Assembly: GCA_041395025.1 (NCBI GenBank)
Contig: JAWLBH010000001.1
Span: forward strand, 510,001 to 542,000
Source of the DNA: Chlamydiales bacterium
Lineage (GTDB): Bacteria > Chlamydiota > Chlamydiia > Chlamydiales > JAAKFR01
DNA length: 32,000 nt
Direction of reading: 5' to 3'
Every line of letters starts with the position of its first letter. The first letter of the stretch is position 1. Of the stretch, positions 18,001-30,000 are shown one piece after another. A program made the position numbers.

Positions 18001-21000
18001 GAATTTAGATGCAGGATCACCTGTGTCATTTCCTTCTTTGCCTGAGAAGGATGGGGACATGGGTTTCCCATACTGCTTGAATTTGATGTCTTCCGGAAAT
18101 TTTTCTTGTCTAGTAAGCTTTTGAGCTGCCTTGAGGGAATGACGACGATTTCTTAACTTCACTACAATCCCAATCATCGTTAGAATGAAACTACTTCCAC
18201 CACCCACAGCTATCATGATCGTAGCATGCACCTGATGAAGAGTACTAATCGCTCCACAATAATGAGAAACACCGACTCCTGCTACAACCAATCCCCCAAT
18301 AGCTACAATAATAAGAATCGCAAAACCATAACTCTTTCCCTTCGAAGAAGACCCGATATTTTCTCTAACCAATTCTTGATTGGTCCTCGGAGAAATCATT
18401 TTTGAAAAACTCATAACTATAAATTGTAAGAATGAAAAAATAGTTTACCTAAAAATAGTTTACCTAAAAATAGTTTACCTAAAAATAGTTTACCTAAAAA
18501 TAGTTTACCTAAAAATAGTTTACCTAAAATAGTTTACCTAAAAATAGTTTACTAAAAATAGTTTACCTAAAAATAGTTTACCTAAAAATAGTTTACCTAA
18601 AAATAGTTTACCTAAAAATAGTTTACCTAAAAATAGTTTACCTAAAAATAGTTTACCTAAAAATAGTTTACCTAAAAATAGTTTACCTAAAAATAGTTTA
18701 CCTAAAAATAGTTTACCTAAAAATAGTTTAAAATAGTTTACCTAAAAATAGTTTACCTAAAATAGTTTACCTAAAAATAGTTTACCTAAAAATAGTTTAC
18801 CTAAAAATAGTTTACCTAAAAATAGTTTACCTAAAAATAGTTTACCTAAAAATAGTTTACCTAAAAATAGTTTACCTAAAAATAGTTTACCTAAAAATAG
18901 TTTACCTAAAATAGTTTACCTAAAAATAGTTTACCTAAAAATAGTTTACCTAAAAATAGTTTACCTAAAAATAGTTTACCTAAAAAATAGTTTACCTAAA
19001 AATAGTTTACCTAAAAATAGTTTACCTAAAAATAGTTTACCTAAAAATAGTTTACCTAAAAATAGTTTACCTAAAAATAGTTTACCTAAAAATAGTTTAC
19101 CTAAAATAGTTTACTAAAAATAGTTTACCTAAAAATAGTTTACCTAAAAATAGTTTACCTAAAAATAGTTTACCTAAAAATAGTTTACCTAAAATAGTTT
19201 ACCTAAAAATAGTTTACCTAAAAATAGTTTACCTAAAAATAGTTTACCTAAAAATAGTTTACCTAAAAATAGTTTACCTAAAAATAGTTTACCTAAAAAT
19301 AGTTTACCTAAAAATAGTTTACCTAAAAATAGTTTACCTAAAAATAGTTTACCTAAAAATAGTTTACCTAAAAATAGTTTACCTAAAAGATAATAAATAA
19401 AACAAGTTAAAAATAATATGTGTAGCATAAAAATCTTTTAAGACTAGGAATTCTCCATAACATGAGGCAAATCTAGATAGTCCTATCAATCGTAGTCTCT
19501 TGTTTACCAACTTCATTAAAACTAGTAGAGAACATCAAATTCTTCTAACACAACTTTGGTTCCATTTTTCTCTTACAAACACCCTGAAAAACATTCCTTA
19601 AATATACTCATAAATTTCATAGTTATGATTTATAGCAACTTAAAAGATAACCTCATCAATAATTCTTCTCTGTAAGGAAGCTTCAGAACTATTCTTATCT
19701 TCTTATTAAAGTTCAAATGTGGGGCCTTCCATAAGTTCCATCTACGTGCTCTTACCCATGTATCATCATCTAAATTCATCTGATATATAAAAATTTCCCG
19801 AGACTTATCGCTTAAATAAATCCAAGCAATAACAAGATCGCAAGCTGGATCACCGAATGGCAGTATTACCAAAATCAATCACACCAGATAATTTGTTATC
19901 TTTGATGAGTATATTACCAATCGCAACATCACTATGAATCCAAACAGCTGCTTGCTTCCATTTGGCCGCACAGGCTTTATCCAAAAAATCTAAAGCTTGA
20001 TTAGATGCTATGAAGTCAACAATTCTTACTATCTGCTCTGTTGTTAACTTGAGTAGATTGAGACTCTTTCCATACAACCATTTGTATTCTGCCGCAACTG
20101 GCATGCAAAACCATCTTTGATCCAAGCCCATTCAAACTTAATTTCATTACTATCAGAGCATCCACTCGCCATAAACAACACCACCATTACCAGCATAGCT
20201 TTTGAAAAAACTATAAAATGTCTACATATAACCTCAAAATTCGTTAGCCAGTATTTGCTCAGCTCAAATTAAAAAAAACACTTGCATTATATCATAAACT
20301 GTGATACCAACCCAGCGGATATTCTCATTCTGAGTACTCCGCATACCACTAATTCTTTATCTACTCATTCATAGTTCCAAGAATATAGGCAATGCAGATT
20401 TTACGCTTGACCGCTCTTGCTAAAATAGGTAAAAATATATCATGTCCTAATAGTGACGATATTTGCTACTTTTAGGACATATAATACAAAAATGCTTGAC
20501 TGAAGTCAAATTCTGAGATATCATGTCCTATAAGTGGCATTTTTTAACACTTTTAGGACATACCATGTTTTCAGAATATATTCAGCAACTAAGAGCTAGC
20601 GGTAGGCGGCATTTCACCTCTGAGGAAATACGTGCAGAATTACAGCTATCTGATAGTTCTGCTAGATCTGGTTTGTATCGATTAAAAAGAGATAAGAAGG
20701 TTATAAGCCCCGTCAATGGACTATATGTCATTGTCCCGCCTGAATATCAATCTTATGGCTCAATCCCTGCAGAAGAGCTAGTGCCGATCATAATGCAACA
20801 TCTGCAAGCTGATTATTATGTAGGGTTGCTCAGCGCTGGATTATTCTATGGTGCAACTCATCAAAAGCCAGCACGTTTCCAGGTCATTACTAACAAAAGA
20901 ATCAAACACTCCCTTGAATTTGGCGATGTGGTTATTGAGCTTGTTTATAAAGATTCTCTACAGGGCTTGCCAACTCAAGATTTTGTAGTTAGCACTGGTT

Positions 21001-27000: not shown

Positions 27001-30000
27001 AATCTTACAATGAAATATTGTATCAATGACGTGAATCCCGTAGCTATCAATAAAGTAGTTACTCGTTATATAATCTAAATTATCCTCTAGCTCTAGGCCA
27101 ACTTCTTTATAAATTTCACGCTTTGCTGCAAGTCTTAAAATGTCCCATTCATTTTGTTCATCTATTTCTTCAACTTTTCCGCCAGGAAATGATAGTAGAC
27201 CTCTGCATGTTTACCTTCTGGTCTTTTTATTATAAGAAATTTTGAATCATGCTCTATTGCAACTTCAACAACCTTTAAATAATGTTTTGTTTGATTTTCT
27301 TGAATTAATTTAACCATTTTTGAACTCACTAAGTTTCATTTTAAAAATTTGCCAATCATTTACCCAATCATCCTCATTAAGGGCAGACGGAGTTATACAT
27401 ATTAGTCTTATCTGAAAATACGATAGATTAAACCCCCAAGAAACTCCGCCTACAGGTTTAATGGTTTTATTTTCATGATCAACTTCTACGGCCCAAGCAT
27501 GTCCCTTCCAGTAACTTAAAGGTTTGGAGAATAAGCTATAGCGCCAAAGAGGGGCATCATAAAACTCTTGTCCCAAATTATAAAATGGGTAAATATCAGG
27601 CGCTTTATCTGTATCAACAAAGATTTGATTATCTTTGATATCGTTACGATCAGTATACACAACGTGCAGCCAGGCGTTGTGCTTAGCTTGAGTCGTGATA
27701 TGAATTGCCGGAAAGTACGGGTTAAAGCAATCGTGGTCACTATTTTCTACATAGGTGATAACAAATTCATTATTAAGCGATATAACCTTTAGATTGCTTT
27801 TGTCGTCTGATTTATAAATGCATTGATGTAGATTGCTAGATGCTGATTGATTGACATCTGGAGACTGCCAATTATATGCATAAAAGCCTAACGACAAAAC
27901 GCATAATAAAATAATCGTAAACACTATCTTTAGTCTAAAGACCATATAACCTCAAAAAAACACCTGCCAGTTTTGCCCAGCTCAAATTAAAAAAAACTTG
28001 CATTGTATCATAAACTATGATACCAACCCAGCGGATATTCTCATTCTGAGTACTCCGCATACCACTTTCCAAAAACGAACCTCTGAATGCCGAAATTGCA
28101 AAAACCCAGTAAAATCAAGGAGTTGATAGATGCGTACCTTCTAGGTAGACGTTCGTATGTATCGGAGATGGAGAGGGTAAAAATGGAGATTTTGGGGGTA
28201 AAATGCCAAAATTGGAGGAAGTAAGGTACGGGTCTGACGCTAGATGAAAACCTTGGAAACCCCATAATTACTGGGGTTTTGAGTGTTACTTATGCTAGTA
28301 CAAAAAGACGTGAGAAAAGTTCTCTCTAAAAAATCTGGCGGAGGTTAGCATCCCTCAATATAGTGCTCTCCAAACTGGGCAGGAAATATGAAATTCAATC
28401 CCAGCTAGTTTAAGTAATATTACACTGCTGAAGGATAAAAATCTGCCTCTAAATTAATCTATGCGACTAAGTTTTTAAGCTCAGCATGTCCTTATAGTTA
28501 CGCTATTTGTAACTTTAGGGACATGGAGATGTTATTCATAATGTGCCCAGCGATACCTTTAAATCACGAAAAACGACATTTTAGCGCCACCCGGAGCACA
28601 TAATTTCTGCACTTAGCCTTATTATCGAAATATTCTATAATCGATAATATTGATGGCTATTAATTCTAACAGCGGTGATAACTTTCAACCCTATTATCGA
28701 TTTTAAATTTTTTCGATAATAACAGAAGTTTACTTATTGTATGCCTCTACAACGCTTTTAGCATCACGCTCAATGTCGCCGTTATCGGAATTTATAGTGA
28801 AACTAGCCACCTCAGCAAACCAAGGATTACGTTCTTTTTGCAATCCATCCAATAGCTCTGAATAATCATCAACTGGTAATAGCGGTCTATAATTGCTCAT
28901 TCTCTCAGCCTGAACTGAGGTGCTTACCTCAATATACACGGTAAATTCTGACTTTAATATTTCGCGAGCTTTTGGATCACAAGCAACATTTTCGTCAGTG
29001 GTAACCACGATGTTTTCCTGAGTAATCTGGTGTTGCAGGATTTCAGTTAATGTTTGATTCAATTTATCTTCACTGCCAGCACCAAATACATCGGTAACGC
29101 TGCGGCCAATAGATGCAACGCTAGCTAAAACGTCTGCATTAATAAACTTCCAACCTAATTGCTTAGCCACTTCTTATGCCACTACGCCTTTGCCAGCACC
29201 TGATTGGCCAACAATAAATATTCTTTTCGCTTTGCTCATATACGCCTCCACACGTTTTGTCATCAACCCAGTTAAAATTATACTGGCTTTTGGCTGAATT
29301 AGATCTTTTGGATCTAACATGTCCTTTAAGTGTCATATTTCGCAACCTAAAGGACATATCATACACGCACTATTATCGATTTACATAAAATATGATAACA
29401 TACTTCAATCTTATTCTCACCTTTGGAATTAAAAACTTGACTTATTATCGAATATTGATATTATCGAGAATAAAGGCTATACTTAAGTCTAGAAATCAAG
29501 AGGTTTAAAGCATGGATATACAACAATCATTATCAGGCAAAGTGATTAAATCACCCAAGGGCTATAATGCCTATGTGCCTAATCCACTACCTCCGGCAAT
29601 AGAATGGACCAACCAATTGGTAAGCACACTATCGCGGGCTGATTACTTGCTGGGTAAGCTGGCTCGAGAAGGTAGCAAATTACCGAATCCTCATTTGCTG
29701 ATGCGTCCCTTCATTACCCGTGAGGCCGTATTGTCCAGTAAGATAGAAGGTACCCATGCTACAATCGGTGAAATTTTAGCTCATAATGCAGGTGTATCTG
29801 TTAATCAGAATCCAGATGATTTGCAGGAAGTACAGAACTACATTACTGCTTTAGATTTTGGGTTGAAGCGCCTTGATGATCTACCTCTGTCCTTACGGTT
29901 AATAAAAGAAATTCATGAGCAATTGATGCAAGGCGTTAGAGGCTCACATGCCACGCCTGGTGAATTTAGAAAAACACAAAATTGGATTGGTCCTCCTGGT

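What the first reader, a model, noticed from the sequence alone, without database searches (positions are those of the whole stretch)
20442..29357. Four copies of one 39-bp palindromic operator link the abiE promoter to the Fic/kinase locus 8 kb away
Consensus: ATGTCCTwwAaGT...ACtwwAGGACAT, always exactly 39 bp end to end. Sites: IR1 20442-20480, IR2 20523-20561, IR3 28486-28524, IR4 29319-29357. IR1 and IR2 bracket the abiE promoter, 81 bp centre to centre, and IR2 lies between the -10 and the start codon. This matches the known behaviour of AbiEi antitoxins, which autorepress through paired inverted repeats (shown for Streptococcus agalactiae AbiE). IR4 lies between the divergent shikimate-kinase-like gene and fic, with an IR1-like flank (GGACATATCATAC versus GGACATATAATAC) and the same TTGACT -35 downstream. 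IR3 sits in front of what looks like the remnant of a second abiEi gene. One DNA-binding protein, most simply AbiEi, may therefore co-regulate a Fic protein and a TA system.
Basis: partly seen in the sequence, partly recalled or inferred. Interest (0 to 1): 0.65.

Follow-up and report, generated by a model that had tools for sequence, protein, structure and literature searches.

The report
AbiEi operator palindromes, two orphaned
Four copies of a 39-bp palindrome are real: two are the self-repression sites of an AbiE toxin-antitoxin (phage-defence) operon, and the two near the Fic gene look like leftovers of an older abiE promoter, not a designed regulatory link.

Summary
ATGTCCT-N25-AGGACAT occurs exactly four times in the window, at the stated coordinates (0.12 expected by chance).

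The AbiEi-operator reading is strongly supported by comparison. In 48 of 80 abiEi-homologue loci from several phyla, the same palindrome lies at -42 and about -125 from the abiEi start. It flanks a conserved TTGACT-N17-TAnnAT promoter, and its sequence co-varies with the predicted recognition helix of AbiEi. The modelled protein has an N-terminal winged helix and best matches Rv2827c and S. agalactiae AbiEi.

The proposed link to Fic is not supported as a conserved design.
- IR3 is the first site of a three-site array seen in other genomes. Its two partner sites have decayed here. The sequence after it is not an abiEi gene remnant.
- IR4 is the distal operator of a former abiE promoter next to the shikimate-kinase-like gene, cut 9 bp to its right by the fic module.
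- Of 21 fic loci with upstream sequence, only one keeps IR4 and one has a decayed copy.
- The fic promoter has its own conserved TATTATCGA repeats.

IR3 and IR4 score as well as IR1 and IR2, so AbiEi may still bind them. This is a new member of a known kind, of modest interest.

The parts
20442..20480 (.). IR1: distal AbiEi operator palindrome, at -123 from the abiEi start. It abuts the -10 box of a leftward promoter-like site.
   Evidence: 49.2 bits. Homologous sites lie at -123/-125 in more than 30 loci.
20496..20524 (+). Predicted abiE promoter, TTGACT-N17-TATCAT. The last two bases of the -10 box are the first two bases of IR2.
   Evidence: 10 of 12 consensus positions. cTTGACT and TAnnAT sit at the same positions in about 30 homologous loci.
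20523..20561 (.). IR2: proximal AbiEi operator, at -42. It covers the -10 edge, the likely transcription start and the Shine-Dalgarno sequence (AGGA).
   Evidence: (48.4 bits). It is 39/39 identical in L001-L003 while flanks are 87-96% identical.
20565..21371 (+). abiEi (268 aa): an N-terminal winged helix-turn-helix plus an AbiEi_1 C-terminal domain. The 282-aa ORF that starts at 20523 begins inside the operator and is probably a mis-call.
   Evidence: Pfam PF09407, 9e-33. PADLOC AbiEi, 3e-80. AF2 model with residues 1-56 confident as a wHTH. Foldseek top hits 1ZEL and 6Y8Q.
21368..22153 (+). abiEii: DUF1814 nucleotidyltransferase toxin. Its start overlaps the abiEi stop by 4 nt.
   Evidence: Pfam PF08843, 5.5e-36. 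PADLOC AbiEii, 3e-104. ORF coordinates.
28030..28400 (+). Conserved non-coding 'Y' element (core 28329-28399) that precedes operator arrays in many loci. Its role is unknown.
   Evidence: nhmmer hits. No Rfam hit. No covariation. No consistent ORF.
28486..28524 (.). IR3: orphan operator, the class-A (most distal) site of a multi-site array.
   Evidence: 44.1 bits. It aligns with site A of the A-B-C arrays of L001 and L048. It is the same class as the -350 site of L020 and L022. It is 87-97% identical to its counterparts while flanks are 53-84%.
28551..28616 (.). Decayed remains of operator sites B and C of the same array.
   Evidence: Alignment with the intact B and C sites of L048 and L001. 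The same decayed B site is present in L113. No reading frame is open.
28619..28722 (.). Two TATTATCGA-N13-TCGATAATA palindromes downstream of the SK-like gene.
   Evidence: I4, 87% complementary..
28730..29239 (-). Shikimate-kinase-like P-loop kinase gene, with an in-frame TAA at codon 22. It is a pseudogene, or possibly a sequencing error.
   Evidence: Pfam SKI, 1e-15. Translation. An intact 174-aa homologue exists in L048.
29319..29357 (.). IR4: orphan operator. It is the former distal (-125-type) site of an abiE promoter that once followed the SK-like gene, truncated 9 bp to its right.
   Evidence: 50.9 bits. Bases 29338-29366 are 96.6% identical to the -125 site plus flank of L018. L030 shows the layout SK(-), three IR sites, abiEi. 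fic-module homology starts at 29368-29371.
29371..29472 (+). The fic module's own regulatory region: TATTATCGA repeats (29371, 29443, 29459) overlapping a TTGACT-N16-TATTAT promoter (29437-29464).
29512..30675 (+). fic: a SoFic-type Fic protein (Fic_N, Fic and a C-terminal winged-helix-like region).
   Evidence: Pfam. PADLOC SoFic, 1e-118. NCBIfam NF046030 hit at 178.8 bits, below the 550-bit cutoff.
20254..20350 (+). Copy 1 of a 97-bp duplicated element, 'X' (copy 2 is at 27972-28066, 96% identical). It marks a segmental duplication or mosaic junction just upstream of the abiE cassette.
   Evidence: D7, D20. Homology of the abiE cassette with L001-L003 begins at 20345.

Best explanation
The 39-bp palindrome is the cognate operator of this clade of AbiEi, the antitoxin and repressor of a type IV AbiE toxin-antitoxin (abortive-infection) operon. 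Each site has two 16-nt arms, ATGTCCTwwwrGTnAC, around a 7-nt spacer. By inference it binds two winged-helix domains.

IR1 and IR2 flank the abiE promoter. IR2 overlaps the -10 box, the transcription start and the ribosome-binding site, so bound AbiEi would occlude RNA polymerase. IR1, 81 bp upstream (about 8 helical turns), is an auxiliary site that would allow cooperative or multi-site binding, as shown experimentally for S. agalactiae AbiEi and M. tuberculosis Rv2827c.

IR3 and IR4 are orphan operators left by mosaic recombination in a cassette-rich defence island. IR3 is the surviving first site of a three-site array whose other sites have decayed. IR4 is the distal site of an earlier abiE promoter that lay next to the SK-like gene. 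The rest of that promoter and its abiE genes were replaced by the SoFic module, which brought its own promoter and its own TATTATCGA repeats.

Shown here: the sites, their conservation, the promoter geometry, the protein-operator co-variation and the recombination history. Inferred: actual binding and repression. Because IR3 and IR4 match the consensus as well as IR1 and IR2, the resident AbiEi probably still binds them. Any effect on fic or on the SK pseudogene would be incidental.
For: - Exactly four sites in the window, against 0.12 expected. They score 44-51 bits and nothing else in the window reaches 12 bits.
- There are 97 promoter-proximal sites in 48 of 80 abiEi loci from Rickettsiales, Legionellales, Francisellaceae, Chlamydiae and others, fixed at -42 and -123/-125, often with further sites at about -200 and -350.
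- The -35 and -10 boxes are conserved between the sites, and a Shine-Dalgarno sequence lies in the right arm.
- AbiEi proteins with the helix AAR[SA]GLYRLK carry this motif. Clades with other helices carry 39-bp palindromes with different arms.
- The AF2 model has an N-terminal wHTH, and its only significant PDB matches are Rv2827c (1ZEL) and AbiEi (6Y8Q). Both proteins autorepress through inverted repeats (PMC7319586).
- IR3 corresponds to site A of the A-B-C arrays of L001 and L048, with B and C decayed here.
- IR4 matches the L018 -125 site plus flank. L030 retains the layout SK(-), three IR sites, abiEi.
- fic homology in about 20 loci begins just to the right of IR4.
- The IR4 equivalent is intact in 1 and decayed in 1 of 21 fic loci, and it is not better conserved than its flanks.
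- Other orphan sites abut the 3' end of an unrelated gene (L002, L003) or a truncated abiEi start codon (L034).
Against: - No binding or expression data exist for this clade.
- IR3 is clearly better conserved than its flanks (34-38 of 39 bases against 53-84%). A dead relic should not behave this way.
- IR4 has perfect arms and is the best-scoring site in the window. In L136 it is also intact at the same -193 position.
- Orphan arrays recur near abiE in about 10 loci. This could reflect function rather than repeated accident.
- The rest of the genome could not be scanned.
Confidence: 0.7

Rival explanations
1. Functional regulon. AbiEi acts in trans at IR4, and perhaps IR3, to couple expression of the SoFic protein and/or the divergent SK-like gene to the state of the AbiE system. 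Two abortive-infection modules would then be co-regulated by one antitoxin.
For: - IR3 and IR4 score as high as the bona fide operators.
- IR4 is intact at the same position in L136.
- IR3 is conserved above its flanks.
- On the minus strand a TATGAT hexamer abuts IR4 in the same geometry as the -10 boxes at IR1 and IR2, so IR4 could gate leftward transcription into SK.
- AbiE and SoFic genes lie within 10 kb of each other in L027, L034, L093 and the window.
- A precedent for the idea exists: Rv1044 has been suggested to regulate genes outside its own operon (PMC7319586).
Against: - IR4 ends 80 bp upstream of the fic -35 box, a poor position for repression.
- fic carries its own conserved promoter and TATTATCGA repeats in loci that lack any IR.
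- 19 of 21 fic loci have no IR site upstream. In L082 the site is decaying at the neutral rate, and it is absent in L113.
- The only gene for which IR4 is well placed, SK, carries a premature stop codon.
- The B and C sites next to IR3 are dead.
Confidence: 0.15
2. The palindromes are primarily DNA recombination or mobility sites, such as attC-like cassette junctions, MITE ends or hairpin-prone breakpoints. They would be protein-operator sites only secondarily, and their four copies would mark cassette boundaries of the island.
For: - The region is a mosaic of duplicated and exchanged cassettes.
- Several recombination breakpoints lie within about 10 nt of the right edge of a site: window IR4, L034 12460, and the C sites of L003 and L048.
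- The sites are often preceded by the conserved Y element.
Against: - The positions are fixed to the base at -42 and -125 from abiEi in 48 loci, with a promoter between them and a Shine-Dalgarno sequence inside.
- The motif co-varies with the AbiEi recognition helix.
- There is no GTTRRRY core. Pfam scans of the larger ORFs found no integrase or transposase.
- There are no target-site duplications.
Confidence: 0.07
3. The sites are bound by a regulator other than AbiEi, for example the Fic C-terminal winged-helix domain or a host factor. Their presence upstream of abiE would then reflect control of abiE by that factor.
For: Fic has a C-terminal winged-helix-like region. No binding data exist.
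Against: - The motif follows abiEi, not fic: 48 abiEi loci carry it, and most of them have no fic. Most fic loci lack it.
- The motif type switches with the AbiEi helix sequence.
Confidence: 0.04

Closest known systems
M. tuberculosis Rv2827c-Rv2826c (AbiE-family) promoter with four inverted repeats (Beck et al. 2020, PMC7319586)
   Same: - A two-domain AbiEi-type antitoxin with an N-terminal wHTH.
- It is the best structural match to the model (1ZEL, E 2e-6).
- Multiple inverted-repeat pairs lie within about 130 bp upstream of the start codon and overlap the promoter.
- It shows negative autoregulation.
   Different: - Sequence identity is about 18%, with no HMM-level match to any PDB sequence.
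- In Rv2827c the 23-bp repeats have 13-bp gaps and the two pairs are almost contiguous. Here the arms are 16 nt with a 7-nt spacer, and the two palindromes are 81 bp apart with the promoter between them.
- Relatives of the window's system have up to four palindromes.
- Binding is untested here.
Streptococcus agalactiae AbiEi/AbiEii type IV TA and abortive-infection system (Dy et al. 2014, PMC3985639; operator described in PMC7319586)
   Same: - A bicistronic abiEi-abiEii operon.
- The antitoxin represses its own promoter through paired inverted repeats.
- Foldseek match to 6Y8Q (E 4e-5).
   Different: - S. agalactiae has a single pair of 23-bp repeats separated by 3 bp.
- The proteins belong to a different Pfam C-terminal family context, and the window protein is larger (268 aa against 195 aa).
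- No orphan operators have been reported for it.
SoFic single-gene anti-phage defence (PADLOC SoFic model; PMC12249575)
   Same: The window's Fic matches the SoFic model over its full length (1e-118) and sits in a defence-type island next to AbiE.
   Different: - It falls below NCBIfam's equivalog cutoff.
- No regulation by AbiEi or by palindromic operators is described for SoFic.
- The promoter repeats seen here (TATTATCGA) are uncharacterised.

Membership tests
AbiE type IV toxin-antitoxin / abortive infection system | AbiEi antitoxin domain | tested here: met
   PF09407 AbiEi_1, 9.2e-33. PADLOC AbiEi, 3e-80.
AbiE type IV toxin-antitoxin / abortive infection system | DUF1814 / AbiEii nucleotidyltransferase toxin encoded immediately downstream in one operon | tested here: met
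   PF08843, 5.5e-36. PADLOC AbiEii, 3e-104. The abiEii start at 21368 overlaps the abiEi stop at 21371.
AbiE type IV toxin-antitoxin / abortive infection system | N-terminal winged helix-turn-helix DNA-binding domain in AbiEi | tested here: met
   In the AF2 model, residues 1-56 have pLDDT 85-92 with H-E-H-H-E-E topology. The top Foldseek hits are 1ZEL and 6Y8Q. The C-terminal half is poorly modelled.
AbiE type IV toxin-antitoxin / abortive infection system | Inverted repeats in the promoter, overlapping core promoter elements | tested here: met
   The repeats are conserved in 48 of 80 homologous loci.
AbiE type IV toxin-antitoxin / abortive infection system | AbiEi binds the repeats and represses transcription; AbiEii is toxic and AbiEi neutralises it; the system protects against phage | not testable with these tools
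   This needs EMSA, reporter, toxicity and phage assays.
S. agalactiae-type AbiEi operator architecture | One pair of 23-bp inverted repeats separated by 3 bp (PMC7319586) | tested here: not met
   Here the arms are 16 nt with a 7-nt spacer, and two palindromes lie 81 bp apart. The principle is the same but the architecture differs.
SoFic anti-phage defence protein | Full-length match to the SoFic profile (Fic_N, Fic and C-terminal domain) | tested here: inconclusive
   PADLOC SoFic, 1e-118. NCBIfam NF046030 scores 178.8 bits against a 550-bit cutoff.
Integron attC / gene-cassette recombination site | Imperfect palindrome with RYYYAAC...GTTRRRY core sites, and an IntI integrase nearby | tested here: not met
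   The core sites are absent from the 39-bp consensus. Pfam scans of the larger ORFs found no integrase.

The most novel reading that the evidence does not exclude
The orphan operators are not dead. AbiEi, made from the abiE operon 8 kb away, occupies IR4 and IR3 and so ties transcription around the SoFic/kinase module to the level of free antitoxin. This would be cross-talk between two abortive-infection systems. More generally, AbiEi operator arrays together with the conserved Y element would form a portable junction at which defence cassettes are swapped among intracellular bacteria while staying under AbiEi control.
Probability: 0.12. Interest if true: 0.6.

Novelty: new member of a known kind. 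Interest (0 to 1): 0.3.

Why it matters
The analysis defines in silico the operator of a large, uncharacterised AbiEi clade that is spread across symbionts and pathogens of protists and arthropods (Legionellales, Rickettsiales, Chlamydiae, Francisellaceae). The definition covers the consensus, the geometry, the promoter logic and the likely specificity helix. Autoregulation in this clade can therefore be tested directly by experiment.

It also gives a worked example of how operator copies become orphaned by cassette exchange in defence islands. Shared motifs between neighbouring defence genes need not mean co-regulation. If the orphans did turn out to be functional, this would be an example of an antitoxin wiring two defence systems together. 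The comparative data make that unlikely.

Tried and rejected
- IR3 precedes an abiEi pseudogene: rejected. All three frames are closed, and the stretch aligns to operator sites B and C of L048 and L001.
- IR4 is an IR2-type (promoter-proximal) site with a degenerate TTGGCT -35 box: the left-flank similarity is only about 1.5 SD above background. I preferred the -125-type origin, which is supported by L018 and by the L030 layout.
- MITE or attC nature of the palindromes: rejected, because of the fixed promoter positions and the absence of core sites or a recombinase.
- The Y element as a structured RNA: no Rfam hit. Single-sequence folding gave z-scores of -1.6 and -0.8. RNAalifold found only 4 invariant pairs, or none.
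- The Y element as a coding sequence: frames are inconsistent and interrupted by stops.
- Plasmid matches for the region or for Y: none.
- Sequence-level PDB homology for AbiEi: none. Only the fold comparison worked.
- Source contig of the window: the only exact AbiEi match is a 1.6-kb contig, so no genome-wide scan was possible.

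
Full report
**Observation**

The four sites exist exactly where stated. ATGTCCT-N25-AGGACAT, with up to 2 mismatches, matches at 20442, 20523, 28486 (one mismatch) and 29319 and nowhere else in the 32 kb. The chance expectation is 0.12, and none of 100 shuffles reached 4.

A weight matrix built from 87 sites in other genomes has the consensus ATGTCCTAAAAGTGACGAAATTCGTCACTTTTAGGACAT. 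This is two 16-nt arms around a 7-nt spacer. The matrix scores the four window sites at 49.2, 48.4, 44.1 and 50.9 bits. The next best position in the window is below 12 bits, and shuffled windows never exceed 4.5.

**Genes**

- 20565-21371 encodes AbiEi (PF09407; PADLOC AbiEi, 3e-80).
- 21368-22153 encodes the DUF1814 toxin AbiEii (PF08843). It overlaps abiEi by 4 nt.
- 28730-29239 (-) is a shikimate-kinase-like P-loop kinase with an in-frame stop at codon 22.
- 29512-30675 is a Fic protein of the SoFic defence type (PADLOC 1e-118).
- The first 10 kb of the window are ordinary chromosomal genes such as cinA, lspA, dksA, nrdR and a photolyase.
- From about 18.4 kb the window is a mosaic island of small cargo genes, gene fragments and internal duplications.

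**Is the palindrome the AbiEi operator?**

I fetched 80 loci encoding AbiEi relatives (40-97% identity). They come from Candidatus Megaera, Neptunochlamydia, Francisellaceae, Legionella, Coxiellaceae, Rickettsia, Chlamydiae and others.

The motif is fixed at -42 from the abiEi start and again at -123/-125. There is often a third site at about -197 to -234 and sometimes a fourth at -350. At 18 bits or more there are 97 such proximal sites in 48 loci.

Between the two proximal sites every locus keeps cTTGACT, a 17-nt spacer, then TAnnAT. The last two bases of that -10 box are the first two bases of the -42 palindrome. The right arm of the palindrome (AGGA or AGGG) is the ribosome-binding site 7 nt before the start codon (window promoter).

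Proteins whose predicted recognition helix reads AAR[SA]GLYRLK have this motif (best upstream score mostly above 40 bits, 29-56 overall). Clades with helices such as NALSSICRIK or AALSAIYRIK score below 20 bits. These clades instead carry 39-bp palindromes of the same geometry with different arms, for example ATAGTAG...CTACTAT.

An AlphaFold model gives a confident N-terminal winged helix (residues 1-56). Its only significant PDB neighbours are Rv2827c (1ZEL) and S. agalactiae AbiEi (6Y8Q). Both of these antitoxins have been shown experimentally to autorepress through inverted repeats (PMC7319586).

I conclude with high confidence that the palindrome is the cognate AbiEi operator and that IR1 and IR2 mediate autorepression. 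IR2 would work by occluding the -10 box and transcription start. IR1 would act as an upstream auxiliary site about 8 helical turns away. Binding itself is inferred, not shown.

In the window's sub-clade a mirror-image promoter-like site (TTGACT-17-TATTAT, minus strand, 20509-20481) abuts IR1. In L001-L003 this site faces a divergent AraC/GyrI-like gene.

**IR3**

Alignment with L001 and L048 shows that IR3 is site A of a tight A-B-C array, with start-to-start spacings of 67 and 42 bp. In the window, sites B and C (about 28551-28616) have decayed by substitution and a deletion. L113 shares the same decayed B site. All frames after IR3 are closed. The 'second abiEi remnant' is therefore wrong.

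Class-A sites are the most distal (-350) operators in L020 and L022. They usually lie 55-180 nt downstream of a conserved 70-nt core, CTGGCGGAGGTTAGCATCC...CTCCAAACTGGG. That core belongs to a roughly 370-nt non-coding 'Y' element.

IR3 is 87-97% identical to its counterparts while its flanks are 53-84% identical. I cannot explain this with a pure-relic model.

**IR4**

IR4's right half plus 9 nt of flank is 96.6% identical to the -125 operator and flank of L018. Its right flank also resembles the sequence that follows site C of L048.

L030 preserves the layout Y, TATTATCGA palindrome, SK(-), three operators, abiEi-abiEii. L048 has SK(-) directly followed by an abiE operon of another clade.

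In about 20 fic loci from metagenomes, and in L027, homology to the window starts at 29368-29443, immediately to the right of IR4. IR4 is therefore the distal operator of an abiE promoter that once followed the SK-like gene. The promoter core, the proximal operator and the abiE genes were replaced by the SoFic module.

Of 21 fic loci with at least 300 bp of upstream sequence:
- only L136 (91% identical DNA) keeps an intact site, at the same -193 position;
- L082 has a decayed copy (29.8 bits; 31/39 identical against 84-86% for its flanks);
- L113 has lost it.

What the fic promoter does conserve is a different repeat, TATTATCGA. All seven exact copies in the window lie in 28620-29467. Clusters of the repeat precede fic in eight other loci, and it overlaps the fic -35 and -10 boxes.

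**Other orphans**

Orphan operators occur in about ten abiE loci, always within a few kb of abiE.
- In L002 and L003 a single site lies between the Y core and the 3' end of a convergent AraC/GyrI-like gene, with no possible target gene.
- In L034 a four-site array ends in GGACATgatGTGtag, a truncated abiEi start. It is followed by an unrelated ATPase-like ORF that has its own palindrome.

These patterns fit repeated cassette replacement just downstream of operator arrays.

**Verdict**

The proposed functional link between abiE and the Fic/kinase locus is best explained as history: orphaned operators in a recombining defence island. Because IR3 and IR4 are consensus-quality sites, the resident AbiEi probably still binds them. 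An incidental effect is possible. The best-placed target is leftward transcription into the SK pseudogene, because IR4 ends 80 bp upstream of the fic -35 box. The cross-regulation model keeps roughly 0.15 probability.

In kind, this is a new member, with a variant architecture, of the known AbiEi autoregulatory operators.

Noticed in passing
window 28030-28400 (core 28329-28399); e.g. L034 1776-1855, 4375-4443, 8504-8578, 10401-10476, 12182-12251; L013 7890-7960: A conserved non-coding 'Y' element has a 70-nt core, CTGGCGGAGGTTAGCATCC..CTCCAAACTGGG. There are 28 copies in the fetched loci. Nearly all share the orientation of abiEi or fic and lie just upstream of operator arrays or TATTATCGA clusters. 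It has no Rfam hit, no covariation, no consistent ORF and no plasmid match.
   Followed up: partly
window 28619-28649, 28692-28722, 29371-29379, 29443-29472: TATTATCGA-N13-TCGATAATA palindromes and repeats. All 7 exact TATTATCGA copies in the window fall within 850 bp. They flank the SK-like gene and overlap the fic -35 and -10 boxes. Similar clusters precede fic in 8 other loci and lie next to Y in several abiE loci. The binding protein is unknown.
   Followed up: partly
window 28486-28524 and counterparts L048 8987, L001 8143, L113 242, L082 4955: The class-A operator, including its 7-nt spacer, is much better conserved than its flanks (87-97% against 53-84%), although the neighbouring B and C sites are dead in the window and in L113.
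   Followed up: partly
window 20254-20350 and 27972-28066: A 97-bp duplicated element (96% identical) contains a promoter-like TTGCAT-N17-TATGAT within the palindrome GTATCATAAACTATGATAC, followed by a GCGGA...TCCGC hairpin. Copy 1 ends exactly where homology of the abiE cassette to other genomes begins (about 20345).
   Followed up: partly
window 20345-22960: The abiE cassette (operators, abiEi, abiEii, a truncated metallophosphoesterase and a 116-aa ORF) is 90-95% identical in DNA to loci assigned to Candidatus Megaera (Alphaproteobacteria), Neptunochlamydia (Chlamydiae) and Francisellaceae. This implies recent transfer between phyla among intracellular bacteria.
   Followed up: partly
window 18436-19388: A tandem array of 64 copies of the 15-bp unit AAAAATAGTTTACCT (97% matches) lies at the left edge of the island, in the most AT-rich part of the window.
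   Followed up: no
window 29174-29176 within 28730-29239 (-): The SK-like kinase gene is intact except for one TAA at codon 22, where the L048 homologue has GAA. It is a very recent pseudogene or a sequencing error.
   Followed up: yes
window 19630-20131 (-), 23780-24842 (+), 25808-26373 (-); 22959-23131 vs 31784-31956: There are several fragmented aminoglycoside-phosphotransferase-like ORFs, with paralogous fragments 78-82% identical to each other. A duplicated GNAT gene start is 86% identical to its copy. The island is full of decaying paralogous cargo.
   Followed up: no
window 20523-20564; many database proteins of 282 aa (e.g. P0001, P0003-P0009): Gene callers often start AbiEi at the ATG of the operator's left arm, 14 codons too early. 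The conserved ATG/GTG after the Shine-Dalgarno-containing right arm is the likely true start.
   Followed up: partly
L034 12329-12498 and 12604-14058: A four-site operator array ends in a truncated abiEi start (GGACATgatGTGtag). It sits 105 bp upstream of an unrelated 484-aa ORF whose N-terminus looks like an ATPase by eye (not checked against any family library) and which has its own palindromic promoter region. This is the clearest other case of a cargo gene placed behind orphan AbiEi operators.
   Followed up: partly
window 20481-20509 (-): A mirror-image promoter-like site (TTGACT-17-TATTAT) reads leftward through IR1. In L001-L003 it faces a divergent AraC/GyrI-like gene, so AbiEi may also gate a divergent transcript in this sub-clade.
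   Followed up: partly
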